A stretch of DNA of 64,000 nucleotides, from assembly GCA_016704525.1 (NCBI GenBank), contig JADIZX010000009.1, positions 42,625 to 106,624 of the forward strand. Reading direction: 5' to 3'. Shown in pieces: positions 50,126 to 64,000 of this stretch. The notes under the pieces are model-generated. The model was not told the DNA's origin, did no database searches, and saw nothing but the letters and a program-made list of their open reading frames with translations. The stretch comes from Myxococcales bacterium. Its GTDB lineage: Bacteria > Myxococcota_A > Polyangia > Polyangiales > Polyangiaceae. Both the position numbers and the translations under genes were made by a program. The stretch's first letter is position 1, and every line of letters begins with the position of its first letter.

Positions 50126-50292
50126 CAGCCCGTCGAGAGGCACGCCGCTGCGCGTCGTGCGACCGCGCTGAGCGCGCAAACGTGGCGCCGGCGCGCGCGA
50201 CGAATGTGAGCGAACGGACCCCGCGGAGGCCCCTGCGCGGCACAACAAAGCCTGGGCGGTGCCGGCTCGCGCGTGCCATCCTTCCCCCCGTC

Positions 50293-51735
50293 ATGCTTGC
50301 CGCGCTTTCGAAGCTGTCGATCAGCGACTTCATCGAGCCGGGGTCGACGTTCGCCGATCGGTACATCGTGGAGCGCGAGCTGGGGCGCGGAGGCATGGGC
50401 GCGGTCATCCTCGTGAAGCACCCGCAGCTGGGGAAGCAGTTCGCGCTGAAGGTGATGTTGCCCGAGCTCGCGGAGGACGAGCGGCTCGTGGAGCGCTTCC
50501 TGCGCGAAGGCAGGGCGACCGCCCGCCTCACGAGCGAGCACGTGGCGAGGGTCTTCGACGCGGGCCGCCACCCCGCGGGCTTCCCGTTCCTCGTCATGGA
50601 GTACCTGCAGGGGAAGAGCCTGCACGAGGTCCTCCATCGCGGCACCTCGCTCGACATCCCGACGGCGGTCGACCTGCTGCTCCAGGCCTGCGAGGGTGTC
50701 GCCCACGCGCACGCCGCGGGCATCGTTCATCGCGACCTGAAGCCCGCGAACCTGTTCCTCACCACGAAGGCCGACGGCGCGCCCTGCCTCAAGGTCCTCG
50801 ATTTCGGGATCGCCAAGGAGATCGGCGGCGCGAGCCCGATGACGGCGACGGCCGAGAGCTTCGGCTCACCCGAGTACATGTCGCCGGAGCAGGTGCGCGC
50901 GGCGAAGAACGTCGATCCCCGCTCCGACGTGTGGTCGCTCGGCGTCGTGTTCTTCGAGCTCCTGACACGCCGCGTGCCCTTCGAGAGCGCGTCGGTCTTC
51001 GAGGTCGCGTCGCTCATTCTCTCGGGCGCTCCCCACGACCTTCAGGCGCTCCGCCCCGACGCCCCGCGCGGCCTCGCCGACGTCGTCGCGCGCTGCTTCG
51101 AGAAGGAGCCCGGCCGTCGATGGCCTGACGTGAGCGCCCTCGCGGCTGCGCTCGCCCCTTACGGGCCCCCGGGCTCCGAAGCGCGCGCCGCGACCGTCGC
51201 GCAGATCCTCGGCACGACCGGGGGCGCGCTGTTCGCCCAAGTTTCCCTCGCGAAAGTGGACCCGCTCGGGGAAGCGGCGACCGAGCGCTCCGTGCCAGGA
51301 CGCAGCACCGGGTTCTCCTCTCGGCGGACCTTGAGCCGGGTCGCGCTTGGCCTGCTGGTCGTCTCCTTTGGCGCGGCGGCGTTCTCGGCCTGGGCGTTTC
51401 ATTCGTCGCGGCAGGCACCCGGCGGCGCAGGCCCCGATCCGCACGCCGCGGGGACAGGCGCGGCGACCGCGGCGGTGAGCCTCCCGTCCCCTCCACCCAG
51501 CTTGGCGCCCCTGACCGCCACGCCGCCACCGGCGACCGCGTCGGCGCCTGTGAGCGTCGCGACAACACCGGGGAGCGCGGGGCGCGCGCTCGTCCCCTCG
51601 CACGCAACGACCGCGAAGCCGGCCCCCTCGGCTTCGGCGCCGCCCCACGCGGCGTCTTCCGCTCCCGGCCCTACGGCGCCCGCCCCCTCGGCCTCCGCGC
51701 CGCGCGGGCCCGGGCTGTCGCGCCACGGCGAGTGA
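50293..51735 (+). CDS. Ser/Thr protein kinase with TM segment and Ala/Pro-rich C-terminal tail
   Basis: GRGGMGAVI, ALKVM, HRDLKPANLFL, DFGIAK, GSPEYMSPEQ. TM segment VALGLLVVSFGAAAFSAWAF. Start at the internal Met MLAALSKL. Confidence 0.8.
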   Translation: MLAALSKLSISDFIEPGSTFADRYIVERELGRGGMGAVILVKHPQLGKQFALKVMLPELAEDERLVERFLREGRATARLTSEHVARVFDAGRHPAGFPFLVMEYLQGKSLHEVLHRGTSLDIPTAVDLLLQACEGVAHAHAAGIVHRDLKPANLFLTTKADGAPCLKVLDFGIAKEIGGASPMTATAESFGSPEYMSPEQVRAAKNVDPRSDVWSLGVVFFELLTRRVPFESASVFEVASLILSGAPHDLQALRPDAPRGLADVVARCFEKEPGRRWPDVSALAAALAPYGPPGSEARAATVAQILGTTGGALFAQVSLAKVDPLGEAATERSVPGRSTGFSSRRTLSRVALGLLVVSFGAAAFSAWAFHSSRQAPGGAGPDPHAAGTGAATAAVSLPSPPPSLAPLTATPPPATASAPVSVATTPGSAGRALVPSHATTAKPAPSASAPPHAASSAPGPTAPAPSASAPRGPGLSRHGE

Positions 51736-51842
51736 AGCTCACCGTCACGGCGCCGTTGCGCCCCGCCGAGCGAAGATCGGCGCGGCTCAGCGTCGGAGAC
51801 GGTCGTGAAGACCTATCGCGCCCATCTATGAGACTGAATTAG

Positions 51843-53099
51843 TTAGAAGTGCTGGGTGATCCCGAACTGCGCGAACCAGGTCGCGATCGGGTGATGGATC
51901 CGTGCGACGTCGACGCGCAGCAGGGTGTCGACGAGCGCTGTCGGGAGGAGGCGCAGGCCGGCGCCGGTCGACCACGCCGTCATCGCCGGGGTGGAGGCTC
52001 CGCGCGCGTCCATCGGCTCGAACACCGCCGCGTCCGTAAACAGCACGCCTTGCACGTACCAGCGGCGCGCGATCTCGATGGCGTGTCGAACCTCCAGGTT
52101 GGCATACGCCTGCGACCGATTCCGGTAGAGCGAGTCGGGCAGACCTCGCACGCCCGCCTGGCTGCCGAGCAGGGCGCTGTGGTTCGGGTTCCCGCCGTTC
52201 ACCGCGCTCGCGCTCGCATTGAGCATGAGAACGGTCTTGTTCCCCAGCGGCAGCCCCGCGATCGCCTTGGCCCTGAGCTCATGCCGAGGTTCGGCCGGTC
52301 CGACGAAGATGCCGGGCCGCAGCTCGAGCGCCGCGCGGAAGCCCCGGGGAGTGAGGTCGTTCCAGGTATACCGGTCATAGACAAGCTCGCTCGTCGTACC
52401 GAGGTAGGTGCCGTCGCGTGGCTGCGAGGGCCCGGACGCGCCGGTGAGGGTCTCTTGATAGGCGTTCAGCTGAAACTCGTATCGCCACTTCGTCGTGTAG
52501 AACGAGGGCGAGAGAAACTCCACCTCCGCGCCCAGGCGGTTTCGCTGCCACGTGTGTTGCGCGTCCGCACCCTCGAAACGGAAGCCGGAGCCTGCGTAGT
52601 AGATCTCCTGCTCGCGCGCCCAGCTGCGCGGGCGGTACGGGTGCTCGTGGAGCCAGAGGATGAAGTTGAGGCCTCGCTCACTGTAGCTCGCCTTTCCACC
52701 CAGGCGCGTCCCGTGGCCGTCCACGTCATGCTGAATCGCACCGAGCGTGAGCTTCGAGTCGGCCAGCGTCTTGCCCGTGGAGAGATCGAAGATCGGTGAG
52801 AGGGTGAACTTCCTGCGGACGCGGACGAGCAGCGTCGTGCCCGTGTGGTCGACCTCGACCTGGTCGAAGAGCGCGAGGGTCCTGATACGTCGCCGCAGCT
52901 CGACGAGCTCGGCGCCAGTGAACGACGAAGGCAGCGGCCTCGGCAGCAGCTCGCTGATCGTCTCTGGCTCGGTCTTCTCCAGACCTTCGCTCCGCAGGGT
53001 CTCGATCGCGTAGGTGGCGGACGGGTCGAGGTCAGCCCCCGCGGGGGTCGCGTACATCAGCGAGGCGAGTCCACACGCGAGGAGGAGTGGACGCTTCAT
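51843..53099 (-). CDS. Outer-membrane beta-barrel protein of the bacterial surface antigen (Omp85/ShlB-like) family
   Basis: Signal peptide. POTRA-like N-terminal region. C-terminal barrel with alternating residues ending in an aromatic residue (…GITQHF). Its start overlaps the BlaR1-like gene stop. Confidence 0.6.
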   Translation of the reverse strand: MKRPLLLACGLASLMYATPAGADLDPSATYAIETLRSEGLEKTEPETISELLPRPLPSSFTGAELVELRRRIRTLALFDQVEVDHTGTTLLVRVRRKFTLSPIFDLSTGKTLADSKLTLGAIQHDVDGHGTRLGGKASYSERGLNFILWLHEHPYRPRSWAREQEIYYAGSGFRFEGADAQHTWQRNRLGAEVEFLSPSFYTTKWRYEFQLNAYQETLTGASGPSQPRDGTYLGTTSELVYDRYTWNDLTPRGFRAALELRPGIFVGPAEPRHELRAKAIAGLPLGNKTVLMLNASASAVNGGNPNHSALLGSQAGVRGLPDSLYRNRSQAYANLEVRHAIEIARRWYVQGVLFTDAAVFEPMDARGASTPAMTAWSTGAGLRLLPTALVDTLLRVDVARIHHPIATWFAQFGITQHF

Positions 53100-53917
53100 G
53101 GGCTTCCCGCGAGGATCGCGACGTACGGCGCGGACGCGACGACCCCGAAGACGAACGCGGCGATCGCGAGGCTCACCGCGAAGGGCGCCAGGAACGAACG
53201 GCGCCCCTCGGGGTGCGGCGCCGGTGGGGAGAGCAACCGGCGGACACGGATCTCGAGGAGCGTCGCGTCGTCTGCCAGGGCCGCCCCCGCCCTGGTCCGC
53301 CCCTGGGCAAGGCTCGCCGCCTTGACGAGGGCGCTCGCGAGGTCGGCCGCGTCGACGTTCGGGTCCTGGACGGCCTCGTCATCGCGCGCGAGCTCGAGCG
53401 CCGCGAGCCAGGCGCGCTGTCGGAGTCGTGGGCGAGAGAAGGGCCATTGGAGATCCGTCAGGAGCTGCACGATCCAGATCCAGCGCGGATCGCAGTGACG
53501 GACGTGCGCCTCCTCGTGAGCCATCACGGCACGGAGCTCGCCGGGGCGCAGCATCGCGAGCAGCTCCGCGCTGAGCTTGACCGTGGGACGGAACAGACCG
53601 ACGGTCAGCGCCGGCCCCTCGACCTCGGCGAACACCGCGAGGACGGCCCGCACGCCCGCGCGTAGCCATACGAGTCCAAAAGGCACCGCGGCGATGAGGC
53701 GCGTGACGTTCAATCCCTGCGGGCCCTCGGGATCGGCGACCGCAAAGCCGAGCAGGACGAACAACGGCAGCGACGCGGGCAGCGCTGGAAGCCAGAGACG
53801 GCGCCACGCGACTCGCTCCCCCGCATCCGGCGGAGTGGGCACGAGCGCCCCGAAGAGCCATATGAGCGCGCCGCTCAGGAGGACGATGAGCAGCTCCGCG
53901 ACTTCGTCACGATCCAC
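53096..53917 (-). CDS. BlaR1-type M56 family membrane metalloprotease signal transducer
   Basis: Four TM segments with the HExxH zinc motif (AVMAHEEAHVRH) in the cytoplasmic loop. Overlaps the blaI stop. Confidence 0.75.
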   Translation of the reverse strand: MDRDEVAELLIVLLSGALIWLFGALVPTPPDAGERVAWRRLWLPALPASLPLFVLLGFAVADPEGPQGLNVTRLIAAVPFGLVWLRAGVRAVLAVFAEVEGPALTVGLFRPTVKLSAELLAMLRPGELRAVMAHEEAHVRHCDPRWIWIVQLLTDLQWPFSRPRLRQRAWLAALELARDDEAVQDPNVDAADLASALVKAASLAQGRTRAGAALADDATLLEIRVRRLLSPPAPHPEGRRSFLAPFAVSLAIAAFVFGVVASAPYVAILAGSP

Positions 53918-54293
53918 GACGACTCCTCCGGCGGGCGGCGATCTCCTCGGCGAGACGGTCGAGCAGGGCGGGATCGTACGTCTCGACCGCGTCGACGAGC
54001 CTGGCCACCGCGGGCTCGGGATCGCCTCCGAAGATGCGGCTCACCAGGTCGCGAACGCGTGAGCGCTCCACGGCGCGTTCCGGCCTCGCAGGTCGAAACA
54101 CGAGCGCCCTGCCGTCCCGCTCGCGGGTCACGAACCCCTTCTTGTGGAGCCGATCGAGGACGGTCGAGATGGTCGTGTAGGCGAGCCCTCGTGGCACGCC
54201 GACTCGCTCGTGCACCTCGCGCACGGTGCACGTGCCAAGCTGCCAAACGGCGGAGAGGATCTCGTGCTCTTGCTCACCCAGCGTCGACGTCAT
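53907..54293 (-). CDS. BlaI/MecI/CopY family transcriptional repressor
   Basis: Winged-helix Penicillinase_R family (EILSAVWQLGTCTVREVHERV...GLAYTTISTVLDRLHKKGFV). 128 aa from the Met at MTSTLGEQ. Confidence 0.8.
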   Translation of the reverse strand: MTSTLGEQEHEILSAVWQLGTCTVREVHERVGVPRGLAYTTISTVLDRLHKKGFVTRERDGRALVFRPARPERAVERSRVRDLVSRIFGGDPEPAVARLVDAVETYDPALLDRLAEEIAARRRSRRGS

Positions 54294-54314
54294 GTTGGGT
54301 TCAGCGTCTACTAC

Positions 54315-54350
54315 TACATCTGTAGAATGAGTCAACTACACGTGTAGAAG
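54315..54350 (-). promoter_or_regulatory. Two TACA-N2-TGTA dyads (BlaI/MecI-type operators) overlapping a TTGACT -35-like hexamer upstream of blaI
   Basis: On the minus strand: TTCTACACGTGTAG-TTGACT-CATTCTACAGATGTAG...ATG. Dyads TACACGTGTA and TACAGATGTA lie 25-55 bp upstream of the start. Confidence 0.6.
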
Positions 54351-54384
54351 GTGGGCGCCATCCAGCGCGCAGGCCATCGCCCGC

Positions 54385-55299
54385 TCAGGCTCGAGGTCGG
54401 GCCGAGAGCACGGAGGGTCCCTGCAGCACGCGCTCGCTGTCTCCCTCGATCGCCCTCACCCAGGCCTCCCAGCGAATGGGCTGGCGTGCGAAGACGAGCT
54501 CCTCCGCGGTCACGCTCGGGTGCTCGCCCTCCGCGCGGCCCCCCCTCACGACCGGCGCGAGAGAGCCGGTGCCACGGAGATCGTAGACGAGCTCCGTCCG
54601 AAAGCCCTCCTCGGGCCAGACGATGAGCCCCTCGTCCGCGATGTCATAGCGGGCCCCCTCTCCGATGAGCGCCTCGATCTGCTCGCGCACGAGATCGACC
54701 GCCGCGAGCTTGTAGAGCCCAGACAAGACCGTCTCCATGATCGCCCGCTGTTCGGGCGAAAGGACCGCGAAGAAGCCCGGCTCGCCCACGCTCGCGACGA
54801 GCCAGCCCGACTGCTCCTCGAAGTGAAGCCACGCCACGTCGCTGGCTTCCCGCTCACCCTGTTCATGGGGCGACGCGCGCAGCTCGAGGCCGACGCGGAT
54901 TCGGTTCGATCCGACCCTCACCGCGTGCACGAGGACCTCGCCCGAGGTCCACCGCCGGACACGACGCAGGAGCCCCGCGAGCTCACGCTCGACGAACGTC
55001 GTGAGACCGCGCTCGACCTCGCGGACTCCCTCTCGGTGCGCGTTCACCGAGCGCGCCCCACGTCGCGCCGCGAGCCTCAGCTTCGCGAAGAGCTTCGGGA
55101 CCGTGCCCGAGTGAAAGCCGACCACGAGCAAGCCGTTCATCGTCTCGCCGTGATGGCCAATCCGAACAGGCTCGAGCGACTCGGCGCGATTGTGTGCGTA
55201 GAGCTCCCAGTTCTCGTTGAGCTCCCACACCAAGAAGCCGAAGACGCCGGGCAGCAGGAACACCGTGGTGCCCGCGACGGTGTTCGCCACGACGGCCCC
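54385..55299 (-). CDS. C-terminal ~300-aa continuation of the same membrane protein in the +1 frame (possible frameshift or pseudogene)
   Basis: Protein-like sequence (TVFLLPGVFGFLVWELNENWELYAHNR...) begins exactly where the upstream frame degenerates. The two frames switch at a C5 (G5 on the coding strand) homopolymer at ~55296-55300. Confidence 0.45.
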   Translation of the reverse strand, partial: GAVVANTVAGTTVFLLPGVFGFLVWELNENWELYAHNRAESLEPVRIGHHGETMNGLLVVGFHSGTVPKLFAKLRLAARRGARSVNAHREGVREVERGLTTFVERELAGLLRRVRRWTSGEVLVHAVRVGSNRIRVGLELRASPHEQGEREASDVAWLHFEEQSGWLVASVGEPGFFAVLSPEQRAIMETVLSGLYKLAAVDLVREQIEALIGEGARYDIADEGLIVWPEEGFRTELVYDLRGTGSLAPVVRGGRAEGEHPSVTAEELVFARQPIRWEAWVRAIEGDSERVLQGPSVLSARPRA

Positions 55300-57806
55300 C
55301 GGAGAGGGACGAGGGGCGTCCGCATCGCCTCGAGGAGGGTCGGGGCCATCGGGAGCAAGATCTTGTGCGAGACCGTGACGACCGGAAAATGTTTGATCGG
55401 GTTCACCTGCGGCTCGATGAGCAGGTTCACGTACACACGCACGAGGTAGGTCACGAAGAACCACACGAGCCCGAACGCGCCCTTCATGACGACGGCGAGG
55501 GTGCCCTGCCCGTCCCGGAAGGTGAGCCACTCGTCGACCGTGTAGATGCCCCGCTCCACGCGCTCGACGGCGCGCCGAGAGACATCGAGCGCGAGCGCGA
55601 CGAGCCCTGGGATCACGTGGCGCCGAAGGTTACCAATGCCGCGCAGGACGAGGTCGCTCGCCGACTCCTCCATCCGCGCGCCGAACGGGGTCCCGAAGAA
55701 GAGCGCCGCGACGACGAAGACGCCACCGGCCGCCGCCGCGCTGCCCGGAGCGGCGAGACCGTGACGCCGGGCGAACAGGAAACCGGGCGCCCCGAGGACG
55801 AGCGGCTTCAGCACCAACCGCGAGAAGAGCGCGAAGGGCGCGCTGCGAAGGAAGGCCTTCACGACGGGGCGGCTGAGGACCCACGAGGGAATGCCCACGA
55901 AGACGGTCCGCACCGCGGAGCCCGCAGAGGACAGCGCGCCGAGCGCGGCCCGCCGAAAGGGGAGACTGTGAAGCAGTCCATAGACGATGAGCGCCACCAC
56001 GGCCATTGAGAGGGTGGTGCGAATCGGAACGTGCGGATGACCGACTTTCTTGCCTATCCCGTGGGCCAGGTGCTGGAGAGCTTCGAGGAAGACGAACGCC
56101 GCGAGCAGGGGGATGACGGCGTGCAACGTGATCTTGCGGCCAAGAGAGGTACCAAAGGCCACTCCGCTCGCCTTCTGCAGCCCCCGAAGATAGACCTCGC
56201 CGGGTCGGTACACGCCATCGAGGCGAAGCGACAGCTGCCGATCCGCGCGGAGCAGCGCGTCCCCGCCGGTCAAGGCGGCGAGGGTGAGATTCCCCATCTT
56301 GAGGTTGCTCCGAGAGAGCGCGTCGCGAAGCTCTGACAGCCCCAGGAATCCCCGTTCCAAGATCTGGTCCAAGATCTCCGCGCAGAGCTTCTCTCGCGCG
56401 ACCTCCTCCGGCACGTTGGAGGGGCGCAAGCCGACCTCGTCGAGCACCGCTGTGAGGACCGGGAGGACCGAGCGCTCCACGTTCGTTCGAGCGCGGGAGA
56501 CGGCCGAGCGAAAGGTCGTCTCCAGGTCGCGCCTGTCGCCCGCCCCGATCTCGGCGCGGTGCGAGGTCACGAACGCGTGATGGAGGCGGCGCGCGATCCT
56601 GACGCGCGTGGCCATCGGCAGCGGACGCACGATCCGGCGTCGAAAGCCGGACGTCACCCAGGTGATCACGTCGACCGCGCGGCGCTCGCGCTCATGCTCC
56701 ACGCAGGCCTTCTGGAGGTCGAAGAGGACCCTCGCCTCGAGCGACCGCGGTGACCATGCGCCCGCCGCCCGCTCGGCGAGCGGCGCGAGGGTGCGCTCCC
56801 ACTCCGCCGCTATGGGGCCCGCCGGGCCCGCCTGCTCCGCCGGGTCGTCGTGCTCGGGTCGGAGCGCGGCCACGAGGCGAGCCGCGAGGGTCGAGAGGTC
56901 GGCGGTCGCGCCCGCGCGCGCTTCGGGAGTATCCAGCTGGAGCTGCAAGATCGCGGCGCGTGCGTGGTTCCCGTCGCTCCTGACGCGTTCGGCGAGCGCC
57001 CGGAGCACCCCGACGCGCGCCCCGGCTTGGGCCGCCGCGCGAGCGTCCCCGGCGAGCACCCGGCCGCTCTGCCGACGAGGCTCGCCGTCGCGCTCATCGC
57101 GCGGTGCGGGCGGCGCCCCCGCGGGACGCGAGCGGGCGAGCAGCGCGGCCGCGTCGAGCTCGAGGGCGAGCGCAGCTTCGACACGCGCCGTGTCCTCGAG
57201 GGTGGGGAAATACTTCGCGAGGTCTTGGGCCGCGAAGTGCCGCAGCTCGAGGAAGAAGGCGGCAAACTCGATATAGGCCTCCGCGTCGTCCCCTGGCGAA
57301 AACAGGAGGTGCTCGCCCTCGAGGACGGCGCGTATTTCGTCGAACTCGGTCTGACCGATTTGGTCAATCTTCGCCTTGAGCTCCGCGCTCCCCAGCGCGC
57401 CGCTTCGCACGCGGCTCTCGAGCTCGGCGTGCACGTGGCCATGGAACGCCGCCCGCCAAACGGCAGGGGCTCGATCGAGCTCCGGGAGGTCTGGCCGGGC
57501 GACGAGGATCACGCTCTCCGGGAGCTCGGCGACGCCGAGGTCCTCGAGACGGACGAGGCCCTCGAGGGCGGCGCGCGGCAGGACGATCACGTGCCCGTGC
57601 GGGACCTGGAGGCCCATGCCCGTGATTCCCCGATAGCGCTTCACCACGCGGCGCACGAGCCTCGCGTCCGCGACGACGGCCCGCGCCGTAGCCGCCTGCG
57701 TGGGCCCCCCTCGCCGCTCGGCGCCGTCGTCCGAAGGCGTGTCGACCATGGCCCACTCTACCGCGAAGACGCGAGTCATCGCAGCTCGCGGCGCGGCGGC
57801 GCGCAC
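55137..57806 (-). CDS. Large polytopic membrane protein, N-terminal ~830-aa fragment (frame breaks at ~55300)
   Basis: Long ORF with multiple TM helices in its C-terminal half and no recognisable catalytic motifs. Sequence quality collapses into Ser/Cys/Arg junk for the last ~54 codons. Confidence 0.55.
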   Translation of the reverse strand: MRAAAPRAAMTRVFAVEWAMVDTPSDDGAERRGGPTQAATARAVVADARLVRRVVKRYRGITGMGLQVPHGHVIVLPRAALEGLVRLEDLGVAELPESVILVARPDLPELDRAPAVWRAAFHGHVHAELESRVRSGALGSAELKAKIDQIGQTEFDEIRAVLEGEHLLFSPGDDAEAYIEFAAFFLELRHFAAQDLAKYFPTLEDTARVEAALALELDAAALLARSRPAGAPPAPRDERDGEPRRQSGRVLAGDARAAAQAGARVGVLRALAERVRSDGNHARAAILQLQLDTPEARAGATADLSTLAARLVAALRPEHDDPAEQAGPAGPIAAEWERTLAPLAERAAGAWSPRSLEARVLFDLQKACVEHERERRAVDVITWVTSGFRRRIVRPLPMATRVRIARRLHHAFVTSHRAEIGAGDRRDLETTFRSAVSRARTNVERSVLPVLTAVLDEVGLRPSNVPEEVAREKLCAEILDQILERGFLGLSELRDALSRSNLKMGNLTLAALTGGDALLRADRQLSLRLDGVYRPGEVYLRGLQKASGVAFGTSLGRKITLHAVIPLLAAFVFLEALQHLAHGIGKKVGHPHVPIRTTLSMAVVALIVYGLLHSLPFRRAALGALSSAGSAVRTVFVGIPSWVLSRPVVKAFLRSAPFALFSRLVLKPLVLGAPGFLFARRHGLAAPGSAAAAGGVFVVAALFFGTPFGARMEESASDLVLRGIGNLRRHVIPGLVALALDVSRRAVERVERGIYTVDEWLTFRDGQGTLAVVMKGAFGLVWFFVTYLVRVYVNLLIEPQVNPIKHFPVVTVSHKILLPMAPTLLEAMRTPLVPLRGPSWRTPSRAPRCSCCPASSASWCGSSTRTGSSTHTIAPSRSSLFGLAITARR

Positions 57807-57842
57807 CGCCGAGCCGAGGCGAACGCTTGGACGCGCGCAAAC

Positions 57843-59243
57843 TTAGGCCCAGATCGTGCGCTCGAGCTCGTCCATGAGGGACGCGGCGAGCGCGGGAGAC
57901 GGCACCCCCGCTCGCTTCGCGAGCTCGGCCTCCGGCGCGACACGAAGCTCCGCCCGAAGCGCCGACACGGCCTCGGTCATCGCCCGACGGACGTCGTCGC
58001 GCTGGGTCCCGGTGAGGTTCCGGAGCGACCACCGGTGCAGGCGCCACGACAGCTCCGCGTGGCGGGTCTCGTCCGCGGCGATCGCGGACATCGCGGCGCG
58101 GATCGTGGGGTCTTCTGCGCGCGCGGCCTGCACATGCGCGACGACCGCGCCGTACGTCTCGCGCACGCACCCCTCGACCGCGTTCTCGCGCGCGACGGCG
58201 TTCAGTCCCCGAGCCCCCACGCCCTCGACGCGGGGGCGGAGAGGCGAGACCCCGTGGCGGCGCGCGAGCCGCGCGGTGACGCGTGCGTGCCGCACCTCGT
58301 CCCGAGCGGCGCGCTTCGCGCGACGAACGAGGCGCTGCGGCGCCCCGGCGCGCGCGAGCTCCCCCGCGAGCCTCCGGAAGGAGACGACGCTCGCGCCCTC
58401 GAGCTCGGCCGCGCGCGCGAAGAAGCGCCCCACGGAGGGCGCGCCCGCGGCGTCCGGCTGGGCGACGAGCCCCTCGGGGCGCCGGCCGATCGCGCACGGA
58501 TCCGCGGGCAGCGACTTTCGCGCGACCGGGGTCACGGTGCCGTCCGTGGCGACCTTCACCGAGACCTCCTCCTCGACGAAGCAGTTCGCGTAAGGGAACG
58601 ACAGGTCGTAGCCGGTGGCCGTCGCGGTCGCGCGCGGCACGAGGTTCGGGTACTTGGTGCTGCAGAGCGGACTGCCGCCTCCGAAGAAGCGAGACATGAG
58701 CCACGCCTCGCCCGGGGTGTCGATCGGTCCAAAGAGCGCCTTCGCCTCGGCGAGCGTCGACGCCTTGCCGACCGTGTCTCCCCGCGTGAACACGATGTAG
58801 GACGTCAGACACCCCTCCGGCGGCCCAGCCTGATTCTGGCGACACGACGCGGGATCGGCGGGCTCGGGCAAGATGCGCAGCGCCGCGAGGGCGGCTTGGC
58901 ACTTCGCGGGGTCCGTCGCCGTTCCGCACGGTGTGCCCGCACCCTCGCTCTGGCTCGCTTTCCATTGCGCCACGAGGCCCGCGTCCGGGAGTGGGCCGCC
59001 GTCGCCTTGGGGCGTCGTCGCGTCAATGGCCTCCCTCCTCGCGCCGATGTAGTCGACCGCGACGGGGAGGCGCACGTCTTCGAAGGTGGCGGGGGGCCGG
59101 CAGGGGCCGCCGGGTGTTCCGCCCTCGGACGTACCGCCGTCGGAGGTGCCGCCGTCGGACGTTGATCCGACCGACCCACACCCCGCGCCGAGGACAGCCA
59201 GCGCCACCCCACGAATGACCGTCGACAACGCGCGTCTTTGCAT
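57843..59243 (-). CDS. Lipoprotein with Gly/Ser/Thr/Asp repeat linker and C-terminal ferritin-like helical domain
   Basis: Lipobox LAVLGAGCGS. TSDGGTSDGGTSEGGT is encoded by a 15-bp tandem repeat at ~59118-59172. C-terminal helical region with E/H-rich pairs resembling the ferritin-like superfamily. Confidence 0.55.
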   Translation of the reverse strand: MQRRALSTVIRGVALAVLGAGCGSVGSTSDGGTSDGGTSEGGTPGGPCRPPATFEDVRLPVAVDYIGARREAIDATTPQGDGGPLPDAGLVAQWKASQSEGAGTPCGTATDPAKCQAALAALRILPEPADPASCRQNQAGPPEGCLTSYIVFTRGDTVGKASTLAEAKALFGPIDTPGEAWLMSRFFGGGSPLCSTKYPNLVPRATATATGYDLSFPYANCFVEEEVSVKVATDGTVTPVARKSLPADPCAIGRRPEGLVAQPDAAGAPSVGRFFARAAELEGASVVSFRRLAGELARAGAPQRLVRRAKRAARDEVRHARVTARLARRHGVSPLRPRVEGVGARGLNAVARENAVEGCVRETYGAVVAHVQAARAEDPTIRAAMSAIAADETRHAELSWRLHRWSLRNLTGTQRDDVRRAMTEAVSALRAELRVAPEAELAKRAGVPSPALAASLMDELERTIWA

Positions 59244-59392
59244 CCGCGCAGTATGCGGCACTTCGGATCTGCCGGCACGCGCGGAATCACGCGCCGCGGC
59301 GAACCCGCTCGCCGAGCTGACTTATCGACCGGCGAAGCGTGGGGGCGAGACAGAGACAAGGCGCCATGCCATCGCGCATCGCGCGGGGTCGC

Positions 59393-59836
59393 TCACTCCT
59401 CGATGGCTTCGATGCCCTGCTCCGCCAGACGCGCCAGGCCGTCCTTCATGGCCTGCAGCTGCGCGGGCGCGTGTCCCTTCCACTCGGTGAGCTCGCCGAT
59501 GACTCGGAGCGGGGCCCGCGTGCGGTACGACCTCGTCGGGTTGCCTGGGAACTTCCTGTCCGTGAGGTTGGGATCGTCCTCGATCGGCCCGGTCGGCTCG
59601 ACGATGTAGATCCGGCCCGGTTCGCCTCCGACGGCGAGCTCTGCGCCCCACGTCGCGGCGTCCAGGGTGGCGGTCAGGTACACGAAGGCCGCGTTCTTCC
59701 TCTCGCCGTAGTTCGAGGCGTGACCGGGCCGGATCAGGTCGCCCGGCGTCAAGGCGGCCTTCGTGCCGTGGAGGTACCCCGGCGCGCCGAGGCTATCCGT
59801 CCACACCTGGAACGGCTCTGGTGGCAGCGTCGTCAT
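59393..59836 (-). CDS. arr: NAD(+)--rifampin ADP-ribosyltransferase
   Basis: Colinear match to the Arr family including HGTKAxLxxGDxI, WGAEL, and GRIYIVEPTGPIEDDPNLTDRKFPGNPTRSYRTRAPLRVIG. 147 aa from the internal Met MTTLPPEP. Confidence 0.85.
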   Translation of the reverse strand: MTTLPPEPFQVWTDSLGAPGYLHGTKAALTPGDLIRPGHASNYGERKNAAFVYLTATLDAATWGAELAVGGEPGRIYIVEPTGPIEDDPNLTDRKFPGNPTRSYRTRAPLRVIGELTEWKGHAPAQLQAMKDGLARLAEQGIEAIEE

Positions 59837-60171
59837 TGGCCGCGACGTTACGCGAGTCGCCGGGGCCGCGCGCTCGATCTCAAGACCAAGCATGTCACCG
59901 ACGGCGGCGACTCCGGCGGGCCGCTCTTCATCGAAGGGACCCACAAGCTCGTGGGCACCGAGACGCGCTTCAACCCGACGACCAACAAGGACTTCTGGGC
60001 GCGCCTGGACGGCGCCGTCTACACGTGGATCGCGGGTCGAGTGACCACGCACGGCGGCTGGGGCGCGACGTCCTCGCGCTGGTAGCGCCGGCGGCCCCAC
60101 CGAGCGCGCGGCGACAGCCCTGCGCGCCGCGAGCCCCCGCGCGACCTTCGCGAATGGTAAGAAGGGCTTCG

Positions 60172-60771
60172 ATGGCGCCGGTCATTCCCGATCCCCAACG
60201 CGTCCGCAGCTTCGAGGACGGGCCCGCGTTCGAGGCGTGGCTCGCCACGCACCACGCGAGCGAGCGCGAGCTGTGGCTGAAGATCCACAAGAAGGGCTCT
60301 GGGCTCCCCACGGTGACCTACGCGGAGGCGCTGGACGTCGCGCTGTGTTGGGGCTGGATCGACGGCCTGAAGAAGTCGTTCGACGAGGCCTCGTTCCTGC
60401 AGCGCTTTACCCCTCGCAAGCCGCGGAGCGTGTGGAGCCAAGTCAACCGCGCCCACGTCGCGCGCCTCATCACCGCCGGGCGGATGACGGAGCACGGCCA
60501 GCGACACGTCGAGGCCGCCAAGGCGGACGGGCGCTGGGATTCGGCTTATGCCCCGAGCAGTCAGATGACCATCCCCGAGGACCTGGCGGCGGCCACCAAG
60601 GCCGTGCCGGAGGCGCTCGCGACGTTCGAGCAACTCACGAAGCAGAACGTGTACGCGCTCGCGTATCGCACGCGCAGCGTGAAGACCGCGTCGGCGCGCG
60701 CCGTGAAGATCCAAACCTTCGTGGCGATGCTGGCACGCGGCGAGACCATCTATCCGCAAAAGGCGCAGTAG
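60172..60771 (+). CDS. ydeI: YdeI/OmpD-associated family protein (DUF1801-type)
   Basis: Family-typical features along ~199 aa (FEAWLATHHASERELWLKIHKKGSGLPTVTYAEALDVALCWGWIDG, ...YPQKAQ C-terminus). Confidence 0.7.
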   Translation: MAPVIPDPQRVRSFEDGPAFEAWLATHHASERELWLKIHKKGSGLPTVTYAEALDVALCWGWIDGLKKSFDEASFLQRFTPRKPRSVWSQVNRAHVARLITAGRMTEHGQRHVEAAKADGRWDSAYAPSSQMTIPEDLAAATKAVPEALATFEQLTKQNVYALAYRTRSVKTASARAVKIQTFVAMLARGETIYPQKAQ

Positions 60772-60840
60772 ACCCGCGCGAAACTTCATGTCCACGTCGG
60801 AGTATCGGTGGCGACCTGCACGTGTACCGCGCGTCACGCG

Positions 60841-61620
60841 TCACCGGTACGGTGGCCCCAGCACCTTGCCCCGATGAAAGCGGATCAGGCAGAACCGCTC
60901 CGCCGCGTGCCGCGTGGCCTCCGCGAGGCGCTCCTCCGCGCGGGCGCGAGGGTAGGTCCCAACGTGTGCGCGCCCCCGGTAATGCGTGGTCAACATGCGG
61001 TGGTAGGCGCGACGCCCAGGCAGGTCGAAGCCGTGCGCCAGGATGTGTAGGACGTCCTCCATGGTCGACGTGTCGTCGTTGAGGACGTACACGGCCACTT
61101 CCGCGTCTTCGACCTCCGCCTCCTCGGGCAGATCGTCCCTCGGCGACACGTCCAGAACGGCGCGGAGCGCGCATCCGGCGAGGAGCCGCGCGGTCTCGCC
61201 CTCGGTGGCCCCAAGCCCGGCGACCAGGTCTCCGCGCGACATGACGGTCGCGCCTCGACGACGGGTGCGCTCGAACGCGTGCGACAGCATGTGGCCGACC
61301 CTCGGCGACGGAGCGCCCGCTCGGGCCTCGGCCGCGACCGCGGGGGAGGCCAAGACGGGGAGCAGGGCCTCGCGTGCGGCCTCGACGGCCCCGGGCGTGC
61401 CGTCGCGCAGCCAAGCCTCAACGGCCTCGTCCTCGAGCGCCGCGAGCAGCACGCGCTCGGGCGTCGCGTGGAGCTGGTCGTAGCCGAGCGCGTCCCCTGC
61501 GGCCAGCTGGAGGATGACCCGCGTCTCGGGGGCGAGCGGGTAGTTCTCCCACGGATGCGCGCGCTCCTGACGGGGAAGCAAGCGCGAGAGCCACCGTGCG
61601 ACCCACTGGACGGCGTTCAT
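60841..61620 (-). CDS. ClpS-like Clp protease adaptor fused to an N-terminal Clp_N-like repeat region
   Basis: C-terminal ClpS core (VAVYVLNDDTSTMEDVLHILAHGFDL...HYRGRAHVGTY). N-terminal helical repeats resembling Clp_N. Start at Met MNAVQWVA. Confidence 0.65.
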   Translation of the reverse strand: MNAVQWVARWLSRLLPRQERAHPWENYPLAPETRVILQLAAGDALGYDQLHATPERVLLAALEDEAVEAWLRDGTPGAVEAAREALLPVLASPAVAAEARAGAPSPRVGHMLSHAFERTRRRGATVMSRGDLVAGLGATEGETARLLAGCALRAVLDVSPRDDLPEEAEVEDAEVAVYVLNDDTSTMEDVLHILAHGFDLPGRRAYHRMLTTHYRGRAHVGTYPRARAEERLAEATRHAAERFCLIRFHRGKVLGPPYR

Positions 61621-61701
61621 GGTTCGAAGTACGCGCGGCGCGCCGCCTTCTTCCCTGATCTCCCGCGCCGCTGCCTGCGGCCCGCGCGAGCTGACGATCA
61701 T

Positions 61702-62127
61702 TCAGTGGACAGTGCGTGGTGGCCCCAGCGCGACGATTGGGTTCTGTGGAAACGGAGCCGCGCGATGCGAGCTCGAGACGACGAGGACGGCAAGCCGCCC
61801 CGCGATCTCGAAGGTCGCAACCGTGGCGGGCGCGCCGAAGTAGCGGATCGGCAGGAGGTCGACGCCGCTGTCCGTGGCTTCCGAGCACGTTGACGATTGC
61901 GTCGGCGCTTCGACGTGGTGGAGCGAGGAGAGGGCCTTCTGATAGCTCTCTCCCGTTCTCGCCATCCTCGCCCGCACCGCGAGGATGGCGAAGCGGGCAG
62001 CGCCCAGCTCGTGATCCGCCATGTGCGCCGTGGCGGCGGCGTGGCCTGCCGCGCGGGCTACCTCGCGGGCGGCGGCGTCGGATGCGCTCCTGGCGGCTGC
62101 GTGTGCGGCGAAGGCTGCCTCCCGCGC
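61702..62127 (-). CDS. Hypothetical protein (weak call)
   Basis: The C-terminal ~90 aa of track ORF 61702..62463 are protein-like (ESYQKALSSLHHVEAPTQSS...). The N-terminal part overlaps the tandem repeat and is probably not coding. Start guessed at the internal Met. Confidence 0.3.
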   Translation of the reverse strand, partial: AREAAFAAHAAARSASDAAAREVARAAGHAAATAHMADHELGAARFAILAVRARMARTGESYQKALSSLHHVEAPTQSSTCSEATDSGVDLLPIRYFGAPATVATFEIAGRLAVLVVSSSHRAAPFPQNPIVALGPPRTVH

Positions 62128-62182
62128 CATGCCCACCGTGGCCTCGCCCCTCGCCCACGCCCGGACGACCTCGCGGGGCTCA

Positions 62183-62355
62183 GGGGCGATGACCAAGAGC
62201 GGCGCGCAAGCGCCGCGAACAGGGTGGAGGCGCCGGGAATCGACCACCCCTGTACGGAGGCCTGGCGCAGTCCAGGGGCGCGATGACCAAGAGCGGCGCG
62301 CGAGCGCCGCGAACATTGTGGAGGCGCCGGGAATCGAAAACGGTTCCCGGCGTCC
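62183..62355. repeat. Tandem direct repeat, two copies of ~93 bp, each with a GC hairpin (GAGCGGCGCGCAAGCGCCGC) and a CGCCGGGAATCG motif
   Basis: Copy 1 at ~62183-62274 and copy 2 at ~62275-62355, over 85% identical. Repeated peptides in overlapping ORFs confirm the duplication. Confidence 0.6.
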
Positions 62356-62612
62356 AAAAAGACACCGGAAACCCCGAAGAAAGCGACCTTCGCGACCGGG
62401 ATACCCTACCAGCCGTTGCGATATTCGACGCTTCGCAACCGGCCGTTGCTGAACACGCGTCACGGGGACGGGTGGGCAGCGCCGAGGGTACCACGCCCGA
62501 CCCTCTCGAGGCCACCATCCGCGCTGGCCTCGACGCCCTCGTTCAGGCCGCCATCCGGGCGGAGCTCGAGCGCAGGCGCGGAGCCTCGGAGTAGAGCGCG
62601 ACGAGCCGGTGA

Positions 62613-62870
62613 AGGCTCAAGAGACGGCACCTCAACGAGTCGCAGAGGGGCATGGTCGCGCTCGCGGTGGAGAAGTTGTACGCGGCGGAGGCGAAGCCGA
62701 AGAGTACGGCCAATCTCAAGCGTGGGACAGAGAAGCCCGAGGTGGCAGATTTGCCACCTCGGGAATCGGGCGACCCGGTCAAGGCGAGAGAGAGGGCCGC
62801 CGCCGCCCTGAGCGTCTCACCCCGTCTCGTGCAAGACGCCAAGAAGGTCGACCGAGGCTCGCCAGGATGC
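62613..62870 (+). pseudogene. Remnant of a phage/plasmid ParB-like (ParB/Srx nuclease-associated) gene: internal fragment only
   Basis: Frame encodes ...ESQRGMVALAVEKLYAAEAKPKSTANLKRGTEKPEVADLPPRESGDPVKARERAAAALSVSPRLVQDAKKV, matching the conserved central region of phage ParB-like proteins. It is preceded by an in-frame stop, lacks the ParB N-domain, and degenerates afterwards. Local GC is lower. Confidence 0.4.
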
Positions 62871-63277
62871 CCCAGGACGCGCCCGCCGGCCGAGGGTGGC
62901 CGTTGGGTCACCCGGTGCGCGCGGAGGCCGCAGCGGGCAACGTGGCGAGGGTCAACTTGCCCCCGGATACAAGTTGCAGGCGCGCCAGCAACCCCGGCCG
63001 TCATGACCTCGGTTGCCCGGCGCGAACGGTTCGACGGCGCCGACCCTGGACCGTTCGCGCCGCTAACTACGCGGAATTGTTCGTTGCCGGATTCTCTGGC
63101 AGTGCTTTTCCTGCGGGTTTTCGACGGCGCCGTGCGCGCGGGAAAGTCGGGGGAAAGTCCCCACGTTCGTGCACCGCGACCTGTCGGAACTTCGCCCGAG
63201 CGCAGCGCCTCGAAGCCCTCGGAGTCGAGCCCAAGCCAGCCCTCCAGGGAGGCCGAAGGTGTTCCGCGACCTCTGAG

Positions 63278-63526
63278 TCAGGCCGCCGCGGAGGCGGTCG
63301 CGGGTTCGCTCCACAGGGCAACGTCGATCCCAAGGAGCACGTGGTACGCGGACACGAGGTCACCGCCCGGTGCTGTGCCCGTGAGCGCGCGCCCCACCGA
63401 CGACTGGGAGACCCGACGTCCGACGCGAGCGGAGAGCATGTCCGCGACCGCCTGCTGTGTGAGGTGCTTCGCCGTCATGATGCGCGCAAGCTCGACGGCC
63501 GCACGCGTGAGTTGTGTTCTACGCAT
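63278..63526 (-). CDS. XRE/cI-like helix-turn-helix transcriptional regulator
   Basis: 82-aa HTH core LTQQAVADMLSARVGRRVSQSSVGRAL. Divergent from a second HTH gene. Confidence 0.55.
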   Translation of the reverse strand: MRRTQLTRAAVELARIMTAKHLTQQAVADMLSARVGRRVSQSSVGRALTGTAPGGDLVSAYHVLLGIDVALWSEPATASAAA

Positions 63527-63606
63527 CGGACGATCATTCTAGCGCAGGATCGATCGTCGTCAACCGTCCTTGCGTGACGCGCGCATCGCTTCTAGGCTTC
63601 GGGCGC

Positions 63607-64000
63607 ATGACCAAGGGAGTGCACCCCGATGCAAGAGCCTACGTCCGGGAGGTGTTCGCGGAGCTCCTACGGAGCCGCTCGCAACGGGAGCTCGCCCACG
63701 AGCTGGACGTGCATCAGAGCCGTGTGAGCACCGCATTGAACGTGGGGCGCGTGGCTCCGGAGACGCTCGAGCGGGCTGCAGCACTTGCGGGGCGCTCGCC
63801 CGAGGAGGTGCGCGACGCGCTCTCCACGATCGGTCCGGGGCTCATTCAGCAGAATTTCCCGGGCGTACCGACGGCAGCTCGCGTGACCCGCCACGAACTG
63901 TCTCTTGAGCCCGCAGTGCTCGCGGTCAAAGCCTACGTGCCGAACGCCACCCCGGATGAGGCCGCGATTGTGGCAAGCGCCCTGCAGCGCTGGGGCATGC
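63607..64000 (+). CDS. Cro/XRE-like HTH protein, 3' partial (open to window end)
   Basis: ATG at 63607, no stop before 64000. HTH core SQRELAHELDVHQSRVSTALNVGRV. Divergent arrangement with the cI-like gene across an 80-bp intergenic region. Confidence 0.5.
   Translation, partial: MTKGVHPDARAYVREVFAELLRSRSQRELAHELDVHQSRVSTALNVGRVAPETLERAAALAGRSPEEVRDALSTIGPGLIQQNFPGVPTAARVTRHELSLEPAVLAVKAYVPNATPDEAAIVASALQRWGM

What the first reader, a model, noticed from the sequence alone, without database searches (positions are those of the whole stretch)
59393..61620. Rifampin ADP-ribosyltransferase (arr) with ydeI and a ClpN-ClpS fusion beside mobile-element debris
A full-length arr with all hallmark motifs sits back-to-back with a YdeI-family gene (often annotated as bacteriocin or antibiotic protection) and a ClpS-like adaptor carrying an unusual Clp_N-type N-terminal extension. 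This lies 1 kb from a tandem repeat, a ParB-like pseudogene and a cI/cro-like pair. It suggests an acquired or mobilisable resistance islet; arr in a rifamycin-producer-rich phylum is ecologically meaningful.
Basis: partly seen in the sequence, partly recalled or inferred. Interest (0 to 1): 0.5.

Follow-up and report, generated by a model that had tools for sequence, protein, structure and literature searches.

The report
Chromosomal rifampin-resistance gene in a myxobacterium
The stretch holds a normal-looking rifampin-inactivating gene (arr) in an uncultured myxobacterium, next to two unrelated genes in a part of the chromosome that differs between closely related strains; it is correctly read but largely ordinary, and the only unusual item is a ClpS protease adaptor fused to the kind of domain it normally docks onto.

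Summary
All three genes are real. arr is 59393-59836(-), 147 aa, 206 bits against NCBIfam's 130-bit cutoff, with the catalytic H/Y/D residues and NAD motifs intact. ydeI/OmdA is 60172-60771(+). The Clp_N-ClpS fusion is 60841-61620(-), supported by a confident AlphaFold model and Foldseek.

The organism is a Polyangiaceae-type myxobacterium, not an actinomycete. The exact proteins are already in NCBI, named Arr and ClpS.

The three genes are not a unit:
- ydeI is the stable anchor.
- arr abuts a 68-codon remnant of a trypsin-like protease gene that is longer in a 95-98% identical strain.
- The ClpN-ClpS segment (60774-61972) is present or absent among 99.7% identical genomes.
- Everything right of 62173 is a strain-specific insert. 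Just past the window it carries a phage-like primase, and arr-positive genomes lack it.

arr has native composition and no integrase, IS, attC or flanking repeats. Its nearest relatives (82-89%) are other Polyangiaceae Arr, found in two unrelated contexts, one of them IS-rich.

Interest is low to moderate; the uncharacterised ClpN-ClpS family is the best lead.

The parts
59393..59836 (-). arr, NAD(+)--rifampin ADP-ribosyltransferase, 147 aa
   Evidence: NF033144 206.3 bits against a cutoff of 130. Pfam Arr-ms 1.6e-48. 56% identical to Arr-ms with H19/Y49/D84 equivalents conserved. Identical to NCBI MBK6463123.1.
59837..59890 (.). Rearrangement breakpoint upstream of arr. Homology to the arr-less contig L002 ends at about 59881-59890, 45-55 bp from the arr ATG.
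   Evidence: blastn of L002 against the window stops at 59881. The aligned sequences diverge after GTCTTG.
59882..60085 (+). 3' remnant (68 codons plus stop, with GDSGGP) of a trypsin-like serine protease gene; a pseudogene
   Evidence: In L002 the same ORF continues for at least 148 codons. tblastn gives 86% identity. Homologues P0275 and P0277 are 258-259-aa Trypsin proteins. GC3 of 0.94 is retained.
60172..60771 (+). ydeI / OmdA-family gene, 199 aa; the stable anchor of the locus
   Evidence: Pfam OmdA 50.8 bits. Present in every related contig, with or without arr and with or without ClpN-ClpS.
60774..61972 (.). Strain-variable segment carrying ClpN-ClpS. In L013, L014, L015 and L106 it is replaced by 219 bp.
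   Evidence: blastn coordinates and junction sequences.
60841..61620 (-). Clp_N-ClpS fusion protein, 259 aa. The Clp N-domain covers about residues 27-160 (61141-61542). The ClpS domain covers about residues 173-251 (60868-61104).
   Evidence: Identical to NCBI MBK6463125.1, which is annotated ClpS.
61705..62158 (-). Imm5-like immunity-family gene whose 3' end is replaced. A breakpoint at CTCGCGGTGCG (61973-61983) is shared by three structural variants.
   Evidence: Pfam Imm5_like 3.4e-19 / 2.5e-13. Junction comparison with L013 and L002.
62183..62337 (.). Two 61-nt direct repeats (93% identical, 94 bp apart) just upstream of the Imm5-like gene
62174..64000 (.). Left arm of a strain-specific insert of more than 7.6 kb, present in the window and L012 but absent from L013-L015. 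It has weak-HTH ORFs, decayed coding signal, and a phage-like primase/helicase just beyond the window end.
   Evidence: No homology to L013 left of 62173. phrog_29234 5e-62 and phrog_19930 3e-28 for L012:654-2357. Phage homologues at 25-35% identity. Frame plot.

Best explanation
This is a chromosomal arr gene of a Polyangiaceae-type myxobacterium (Myxococcota). It belongs to a Polyangiaceae-specific Arr clade.

By inference from full conservation of the Arr-ms catalytic and NAD-binding residues, the enzyme transfers ADP-ribose from NAD+ to the C23 hydroxyl of rifamycins. The modified drug no longer binds the RNA polymerase beta subunit.

In this species arr lies at a rearrangement scar. Its upstream region begins 45-55 bp from a breakpoint that removed the 5' part of a trypsin-like protease gene.

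Its neighbours are there by accident of location:
- ydeI is the conserved anchor gene.
- The Clp_N-ClpS gene lies in a separate 1.2-kb segment that is present or absent among 99.7% identical genomes and has one end inside an Imm5-like immunity gene.
- Everything right of 62173 belongs to a further strain-specific insert with phage-like replication genes.

The locus is therefore a hotspot of gene-sized replacements, not a mobile resistance island.

Shown: gene identities, motif conservation, structural variants, non-synteny of arr within the family.
Inferred: rifamycin resistance activity, and the direction of the arr/protease event (insertion against deletion).
For: Identity of arr. Motif definitions come from PMC8492726 and PMC13246000.

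Taxon:
- The only ClpN-ClpS loci in the GTDB representatives are two Polyangiaceae MAGs.
- The identical or 99% identical proteins are named 'Myxococcales bacterium', and the 83-84% identical Arr proteins 'Polyangiaceae bacterium'.

Same-species synteny: L012, L013 and L014 are 99.7% collinear from 49390 to 60773.

Scar: L002 is 95-98% identical over 59881-61983 but continues into a protease ORF where the window has arr.

Loss elsewhere: L021 keeps only 42 degenerate arr codons next to the same protease remnant and ydeI.

Non-synteny in the family: L018/L019 and L022-L025 (IS66, Fic, integrase, IS91 nearby) share only the ORF plus 0-17 bp with the window.

Native composition.

No repeats, tRNA, Rfam family, attC-like fold or defence-system hit.

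ClpN-ClpS presence/absence and junctions.
Against: - No contig of the arr-less type extends past the protease gene. arr could lie further upstream there, so the scar could be a simple deletion rather than an arr insertion.
- Resistance activity is untested. No promoter was recognised, although the scan only models sigma-70 consensus sites.
- Most comparison sequences are short metagenome contigs or MAGs, which can be chimeric. L032 shows a possibly chimeric arr.
Confidence: 0.75

Rival explanations
1. arr is an old resident of this chromosome region. The scar is a deletion between arr and the protease gene, so the arr-less-looking strain (L002) also has arr further upstream. Nothing was acquired here.
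For: Native GC and GC3. arr is fixed in all six contigs of the species. L002 ends inside the protease gene, so arr cannot be excluded there. L021 shows that deletions do occur at this spot.
Against: arr occupies three unrelated contexts within Polyangiaceae, with homology confined to the ORF. No 90-98% identical arr, as expected for an L002-type strain, appears among the top hits: there is a gap between 99% and 89%.
Confidence: 0.3
2. arr, ydeI and ClpN-ClpS form one acquired, mobilisable resistance islet.
For: The genes are adjacent. The region varies between strains. A phage-like primase element lies nearby.
Against: The three genes have different presence/absence patterns. Their orientations rule out a single operon (-, +, -). 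No mobility genes or boundary repeats surround them. Distant ClpN-ClpS loci and other arr loci lack the partner genes. The primase insert is absent from arr-positive L013-L015.
Confidence: 0.04
3. The Arr homologue serves a purpose other than rifamycin resistance in this myxobacterium, for example modifying another RNA-polymerase-targeting or endogenous metabolite.
For: The host is not known to meet rifamycin producers preferentially. The Polyangiaceae Arr proteins form a tight clade of their own. The rifampin-site residues differ slightly from Arr-ms, e.g. LTDRKFPGN against VTDKKLPGN.
Against: The equivalog-level HMM score is well above the cutoff. All functionally tested Arr proteins across the tree confer rifampin resistance (PMC8492726).
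Confidence: 0.08

Closest known systems
Arr-ms (Mycolicibacterium smegmatis rifampin ADP-ribosyltransferase, PDB 2HW2) and NCBIfam NF033144
   Same: Same length class (147 against 143 aa), 56% identity end to end. H19/Y49/D84, HGT and S[NH][YF] are conserved. The score is above the equivalog cutoff. Like Arr-ms it is chromosomal.
   Different: It scores below the allele-specific 'exception' models (176 and 174 bits against a cutoff of 250). Different phylum (Myxococcota). It belongs to a clade whose named members are all Myxococcales/Polyangiaceae.
Integron and plasmid arr alleles (arr-2, arr-3 and others)
   Same: Same enzyme family (PDB ARR-2 9iba, E = 1e-36).
   Different: At most 70% identical to any plasmid arr, and below 60% to nearly all of the 1715 matching plasmid records. 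No attC-like structure, integron integrase or IS next to it.
ClpS, the N-degron adaptor of ClpAP (E. coli ClpS, PDB 1MBX/3O2B)
   Same: The C-terminal 80 residues superpose at 1.3 A (TM 0.85-0.90). The N34/D35/D36/M40/H66 equivalents (N181, D182, D183, M187, H213) are kept, and T38 becomes S185 (alignment).
   Different: The short flexible N-terminal extension is replaced by a 170-residue Clp N-domain. The protein scores far below every NCBIfam ClpS equivalog cutoff (33 against 143 bits). E. coli E79 aligns with Ala and K84 with Arg; their role in ClpA binding is recalled from memory and was not tested.
N-domains of ClpA/ClpB/ClpC (Pfam Clp_N, the docking platform for ClpS and MecA)
   Same: The same double four-helix repeat fold (TM 0.60-0.72 to 1KHY, 2Y1R, 1R6O chain B, 6PBS). 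Profile hit to the ClpC1 NTD at E = 0.001.
   Different: It is not attached to an AAA+ module. The window protein itself fails the Pfam Clp_N model.
YdeI/OmdA family (PF13376)
   Same: C-terminal OmdA domain above the Pfam threshold.
   Different: No NCBIfam hit. No evidence here for any link to antibiotics.

Membership tests
Arr (NAD+--rifampin ADP-ribosyltransferase, NF033144 / PF12120) | Whole-protein HMM score above the curated cutoff | tested here: met
   206.3 bits against 130. Pfam 163.4 against 25.
Arr (NAD+--rifampin ADP-ribosyltransferase, NF033144 / PF12120) | Catalytic H-Y-D residues (Arr-ms H19, Y49, D84) | tested here: met
   H23, Y53 and D88 align to them. Residue definitions from PMC8492726 and PMC13246000.
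Arr (NAD+--rifampin ADP-ribosyltransferase, NF033144 / PF12120) | NAD-binding motifs HGT and S[NH][YF]; size 140-150 aa | tested here: met
   H23-G24-T25 and S41-N42-Y43; 147 aa.
Arr (NAD+--rifampin ADP-ribosyltransferase, NF033144 / PF12120) | ADP-ribosylates rifampicin and raises the MIC | not testable with these tools
   Needs expression and MIC or LC-MS measurement.
Mobile resistance element (integron cassette, transposon, ICE, genomic island) | Adjacent integrase/transposase, attC or terminal repeats, tRNA target | tested here: not met
   No tRNA. No meaningful repeats around arr. The downstream 149 nt fold no better than shuffles (z = 0.11). The neighbours are a lipoprotein and ydeI.
Mobile resistance element (integron cassette, transposon, ICE, genomic island) | Foreign base composition | tested here: not met
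   arr GC 0.696, GC3 0.905. Window GC 0.715; neighbours' GC3 0.88-0.905.
Mobile resistance element (integron cassette, transposon, ICE, genomic island) | Presence/absence among close relatives and different locations in the family | tested here: inconclusive
   Three contexts in Polyangiaceae. L002 has a protease ORF at the arr position, but that contig ends too early to prove absence.
ClpS (PF02617; NCBIfam ClpS equivalogs) | ClpS fold and Pfam domain | tested here: met
   52 bits against 23. Foldseek rmsd 1.3 A, TM 0.85-0.90.
ClpS (PF02617; NCBIfam ClpS equivalogs) | N-degron pocket residues (E. coli N34, D35, D36, T38, M40, H66; list recalled from memory) | tested here: met
   N181, D182, D183, S185, M187 and H213 in the alignment. 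N181, D182, S185 and M187 are invariant in the close family.
ClpS (PF02617; NCBIfam ClpS equivalogs) | Equivalog-level score and the free-standing ~100-aa architecture with a short flexible N-terminal extension | tested here: not met
   Best NCBIfam score 33 bits against a cutoff of 143. The protein is 259 aa with a folded N-domain.
ClpS (PF02617; NCBIfam ClpS equivalogs) | Binds the ClpA/ClpC N-domain and delivers substrates | not testable with these tools
Clp_N (PF02861) | Pfam HMM hit on the protein itself | tested here: not met
   No hit at E <= 1. The precomputed annotation marks it 'faint'.
Clp_N (PF02861) | Double-repeat helical N-domain fold, and homology through family members | tested here: met
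   Foldseek TM 0.60-0.72 to ClpB/ClpC/ClpA N-domains. ClpC1 NTD E = 0.001 with the family profile. 13 of 32 family members pass Clp_N.
YdeI/OmdA (PF13376) | Pfam domain above the gathering score | tested here: met
   50.8 bits against 25.6.

The most novel reading that the evidence does not exclude
The Clp_N-ClpS protein may be a self-docked adaptor decoy. In this reading, its ClpS domain keeps an intact N-degron pocket while its ClpA-binding face is occupied in cis by its own Clp N-domain. It would then sequester N-degron substrates, or compete for ClpS/ClpA contacts, and dampen ClpAPS proteolysis.

Three things make an immunity-like role in myxobacterial strain warfare conceivable:
- In Myxococcus xanthus, loss of clpA or clpS gives full resistance to the polymorphic toxin SitA6 (PMC8546572).
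- This gene sits directly downstream of an Imm5-like immunity gene.
- It lies in a segment that is present or absent between 99.7% identical strains.

The evidence does not exclude this. It rests only on adjacency, the high pTM of the model and one paper. No conserved partner gene was found in other loci.
Probability: 0.08. Interest if true: 0.6.

Novelty: new member of a known kind. Interest (0 to 1): 0.25.

Why it matters
It adds little for resistance surveillance. This is an environmental, chromosomal arr, at most 70% identical to any plasmid allele, and NCBI has already auto-annotated it.

It does show that Polyangiaceae carry their own Arr clade, which changes chromosomal position within the family without recognisable mobile-element machinery. 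That is relevant to how environmental resistomes are structured.

The more useful by-product is a family of Clp_N-ClpS fusion proteins with no published description that I could find. Dozens of 50%-identity clusters exist. Some members are membrane-anchored, and one also carries an SspB domain. A confident two-domain model is now available. If the fusion regulates or blocks N-degron proteolysis, that would be a new way of controlling ClpAPS.

Tried and rejected
- Exact-protein look-ups for the window's Arr and the lipoprotein found nothing. The source genome surfaced only through cluster members.
- Searching JGI metagenomes with the L002 protease fragment found nothing.
- Searching with the 466-aa lipoprotein gave 80 loci, all distant (35-53%) except L032. 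L032 carries a mosaic or possibly chimeric arr and did not resolve the second junction.
- The protease homologue search gave only 49-72% relatives in other contexts.
- The downstream boundary of the arr event therefore remains unknown.
- No Rfam family or tRNA in the whole window. No sigma-70-like promoter or intrinsic terminator in 59150-61800.
- No unusual RNA or DNA fold downstream or upstream of arr, so an attC site is rejected.
- No PADLOC hits for any gene of the region, so a known anti-phage defence system is rejected.
- The first AF2 run with 5 sequences was poor (pLDDT 61) and was discarded in favour of the 32-sequence run.
- The afdb50 fold library was unavailable, so the taxonomic spread of the fusion among cultured organisms was not obtained.
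- Literature searches found no description of a Clp_N-ClpS fusion and no paper on arr in myxobacteria. The library is limited, so this is absence of evidence only.
Full report
**1. What is there.**
The interval 59393-61620 holds three genes in a 70% GC background.

(i) arr, 59393-59836 on the minus strand, 147 aa.
- It matches Pfam Arr-ms (E = 1.6e-48) and the NCBIfam equivalog model NF033144 at 206.3 bits against a cutoff of 130.
- It aligns end to end with the solved M. smegmatis enzyme (2HW2, E = 1.4e-48) at 56% identity.
- The residues reported as needed for activity (Arr-ms His19, Tyr49, Asp84; PMC13246000; PMC8492726) correspond to H23, Y53 and D88.
- The NAD motifs HGT and S[NH][YF] are present as HGT and SNY.

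(ii) ydeI, 60172-60771 on the plus strand, 199 aa, with an OmdA domain (50.8 bits against 25.6).

(iii) A 259-aa gene, 60841-61620 on the minus strand, with a ClpS domain at residues 173-241.

The 259-aa start, rather than the 286-aa ORF, is supported by the homologue alignment.

**2. The Clp_N-ClpS fusion is real.**
- The window protein's N-terminal half does not hit Pfam Clp_N directly.
- Its four closest homologue clusters carry precomputed Clp_N + ClpS annotations.
- A profile of the family matches the N-domains of ClpC1 and ClpC in the PDB (E = 0.001-0.05).
- An exhaustive HMM search of 1.84 billion cluster representatives found 679 relatives. Dozens of them are 230-300-aa proteins matched across both domains.
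- 31 of 32 aligned members pass ClpS and 13 pass Clp_N. Some also carry SspB or a second ClpS, and many have an N-terminal hydrophobic helix.
- With that 32-sequence alignment AlphaFold gives pLDDT 94.6 and pTM 0.88. The first run with 5 sequences gave only pLDDT 61.
- Foldseek places the C-terminal domain on E. coli and Caulobacter ClpS (rmsd 1.3 A, TM 0.85-0.90). It places the N-terminal domain on the ClpB, ClpC and ClpA N-domains (TM 0.60-0.72).
- The residues I recall as forming the ClpS N-degron pocket (N34, D35, D36, T38, M40, H66) align with N181, D182, D183, S185, M187 and H213.
- The high pTM and the confidently modelled linker suggest that the two domains pack against each other. I could not inspect the coordinates, so whether this mimics the ClpA-N:ClpS complex remains inference.
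- The protein fails all NCBIfam ClpS equivalog cutoffs (33 against 143 bits). It is therefore not an orthodox ClpS.

**3. Whose genome.**
- The only relatives of the fusion among 185,579 GTDB representative genomes are two Polyangiaceae MAGs.
- The window's Arr and ClpN-ClpS proteins are identical to NCBI MBK6463123.1 and MBK6463125.1 from a 'Myxococcales bacterium' MAG. There they are already named NAD(+)--rifampin ADP-ribosyltransferase and ClpS.
- Three further MAGs of the same species are 99.7% identical to the window over 11-14.6 kb.
- Polyangiaceae belong to Myxococcota.

**4. The three genes have separate histories.**
The related contigs give at least four structural variants of the locus.

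(a) The window and L012: lipoprotein - arr - protease remnant - ydeI - ClpN-ClpS - chimeric Imm5-like gene - insert.

(b) L013, L014, L015 and L106:
- They are collinear with the window from 49390 to 60773.
- The 1.2 kb from 60774 to 61972, which holds ClpN-ClpS, is replaced by 219 bp that complete an intact Imm5-like gene.
- Everything right of 62173 is different.

(c) L002-L007 (95-98% identical):
- They have ydeI, ClpN-ClpS, an extra PhyH gene and 63 extra bp.
- Where the window has arr, they have a continuing trypsin-like protease ORF of at least 148 codons.
- The window keeps only the last 68 codons of that gene (59882-60085, with GDSGGP and GC3 0.94).
- Homology ends at about 59881-59890, 45-55 bp upstream of the arr ATG.

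(d) L021 (95% identical): ydeI, the same protease remnant, and only 42 degenerate arr codons, followed by an unrelated helicase fragment.

Across these variants ydeI is the constant. arr and ClpN-ClpS vary independently. One breakpoint (CTCGCGGTGCG, 61973-61983) inside the Imm5-like gene recurs in three variants.

More distant ClpN-ClpS loci have neither arr nor ydeI, and they share no conserved neighbour.

**5. Is arr acquired?**
- Its closest relatives (82-89% identity) are 147-aa proteins. The named ones are all Myxococcales or Polyangiaceae.
- These relatives lie in two other contexts. In L018/L019, arr is followed by a convergent 724-aa gene. In L022-L025, it sits after PNPOx and a 71-aa gene, at the edge of a region with IS66, Fic, a phage integrase, IS91 and rve genes.
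- Nucleotide similarity to the window stops at the stop codon on one side and within 0-17 bp of the ATG on the other.
- So arr is not syntenic across the family.
- Against a recent or foreign origin, arr has native composition: GC 0.696 and GC3 0.905, against 0.88-0.905 for its neighbours.
- It has no flanking repeats, tRNA, integrase or IS. There is no attC-like or otherwise exceptional fold beside it (z = 0.11 and -0.72).
- It is at most 70% identical to any plasmid-borne arr, and below 60% to nearly all of the 1715 matching plasmid records, which are dominated by clinical enterobacterial genera.
- The truncated protease shows that a rearrangement happened next to arr. L002 ends inside the protease gene, so I cannot tell whether arr was inserted or whether DNA between arr and the protease gene was deleted.
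- Attempts to find a longer arr-less contig failed.

**6. The 'mobile-element debris'.**
- Right of 62173 the window and L012 share no homology with L013-L015.
- In L012 this insert is more than 7.6 kb. Just beyond the window end it encodes a 567-aa protein matching phage primase/helicase families (phrog_29234 5e-62, phrog_19930 3e-28), with 25-35% identical homologues in Caulobacter, Ruegeria and Actinoplanes phages.
- Inside the window the insert shows a two-copy 61-nt repeat and a short strongly coding stretch at about 62440-62760 followed by decayed coding signal.
- It also has two divergent ORFs with sub-threshold HTH hits.
- 'ParB-like' found no support.
- So a strain-specific, phage-like integrated element does lie beside the finding. 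arr is not part of it: ydeI separates them, and arr-positive genomes lack the insert.

**7. Mechanism.**
- Arr (inferred from family membership): NAD+-dependent ADP-ribosylation of the rifamycin ansa-chain C23 hydroxyl, which prevents binding to the RNA polymerase beta subunit. This is established knowledge of the family; see PMC8492726.
- arr heads a same-strand string of genes: a lipoprotein, a 1120-aa gene and a BlaI/BlaR1-like pair. Its promoter must lie in the 335-bp stretch made of the protease remnant. No sigma-70 consensus site was found there.
- YdeI: function unknown, and nothing here links it to antibiotics.
- ClpN-ClpS: most likely an N-degron-binding protein whose access to ClpA/ClpC is altered by its own N-domain.
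- The most novel reading not excluded is a cis-docked decoy that dampens ClpAPS. This is interesting because M. xanthus clpA and clpS mutants are fully resistant to the SitA6 toxin (PMC8546572) and because the gene follows an Imm5-like immunity gene in a variable segment. I put this at under 10%.

**8. Verdict.**
- It is wrong on two points: the phylum, and the idea of a three-gene mobilisable islet.
- arr is a new member of a known kind, already auto-annotated in public records.
- The fusion protein belongs to an uncharacterised but not rare architecture.
- Interest 0.25.

Noticed in passing
window 59882-60085 (+): A 68-codon 3' remnant of a trypsin-like serine protease gene (GDSGGP motif) lies between arr and ydeI. 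The gene is longer in the related contig L002.
   Followed up: yes
window ~55301, within 54387-57749 (-): A 2-bp insertion relative to three 99.7% identical genomes (L012, L013, L014) splits the 1120-aa gene into two overlapping ORFs of 889 and 381 aa. This is either a real pseudogene or an assembly error.
   Followed up: partly
proteins P0005, P0012, P0045 (hits); not in the window: Many of the top Arr hits are ~240-aa proteins with two tandem Arr core domains in one chain, for example in the cyanobacteria Phormidium and Leptolyngbya. This tandem-Arr architecture outscores single-domain relatives.
   Followed up: partly
L032 1898-2410 (JGI Ga0209477_1019375): A mosaic arr. Its 3' half and the downstream lipoprotein are 99% identical to the window. 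Its 5' half is divergent and preceded by a TetR gene. The switch lies in the most conserved part of arr, so this is either real recombination or a chimeric assembly.
   Followed up: partly
window 61705-62158 (-) and 61973-61983: The Imm5-like immunity-family gene has had its 3' end replaced. The same 11-bp junction (CTCGCGGTGCG) is the breakpoint in three different structural variants, which suggests a recombination hotspot.
   Followed up: partly
L002 565-1345: A PhyH (phytanoyl-CoA dioxygenase family) gene lies between the ClpN-ClpS gene and the upstream ORF in L002-type contigs. It is absent from the window, where the two flanks overlap by 16 bp (61656-61671). This looks like a deletion or insertion at a short repeat.
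   Followed up: partly
L012 654-3298 (about 2.5-5.2 kb beyond the window's right end): Phage-like primase/helicase genes (phrog_29234, 5e-62) in a strain-specific insert of more than 7.6 kb. Its far end and its integrase were not found.
   Followed up: partly
window 53098-54295 (-): A BlaI/Penicillinase_R-like repressor and a BlaR1-like Peptidase_M56 sensor pair, downstream on the same strand as arr. Identified from Pfam annotations of the collinear loci L012-L014.
   Followed up: no
L022 and L025, 1766-2513: In the other Polyangiaceae arr context, a Leu/Phe-tRNA protein transferase (N-degron pathway enzyme) lies 3.5 kb from arr. This is probably coincidence, but it is notable given the ClpS-like gene in the window.
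   Followed up: no
proteins P0130, P0135, P0139, P0144, P0154: Distant members of the Clp_N-ClpS family often begin with a hydrophobic, probably transmembrane helix. One has SspB + Clp_N + ClpS and one has two ClpS domains.
   Followed up: partly
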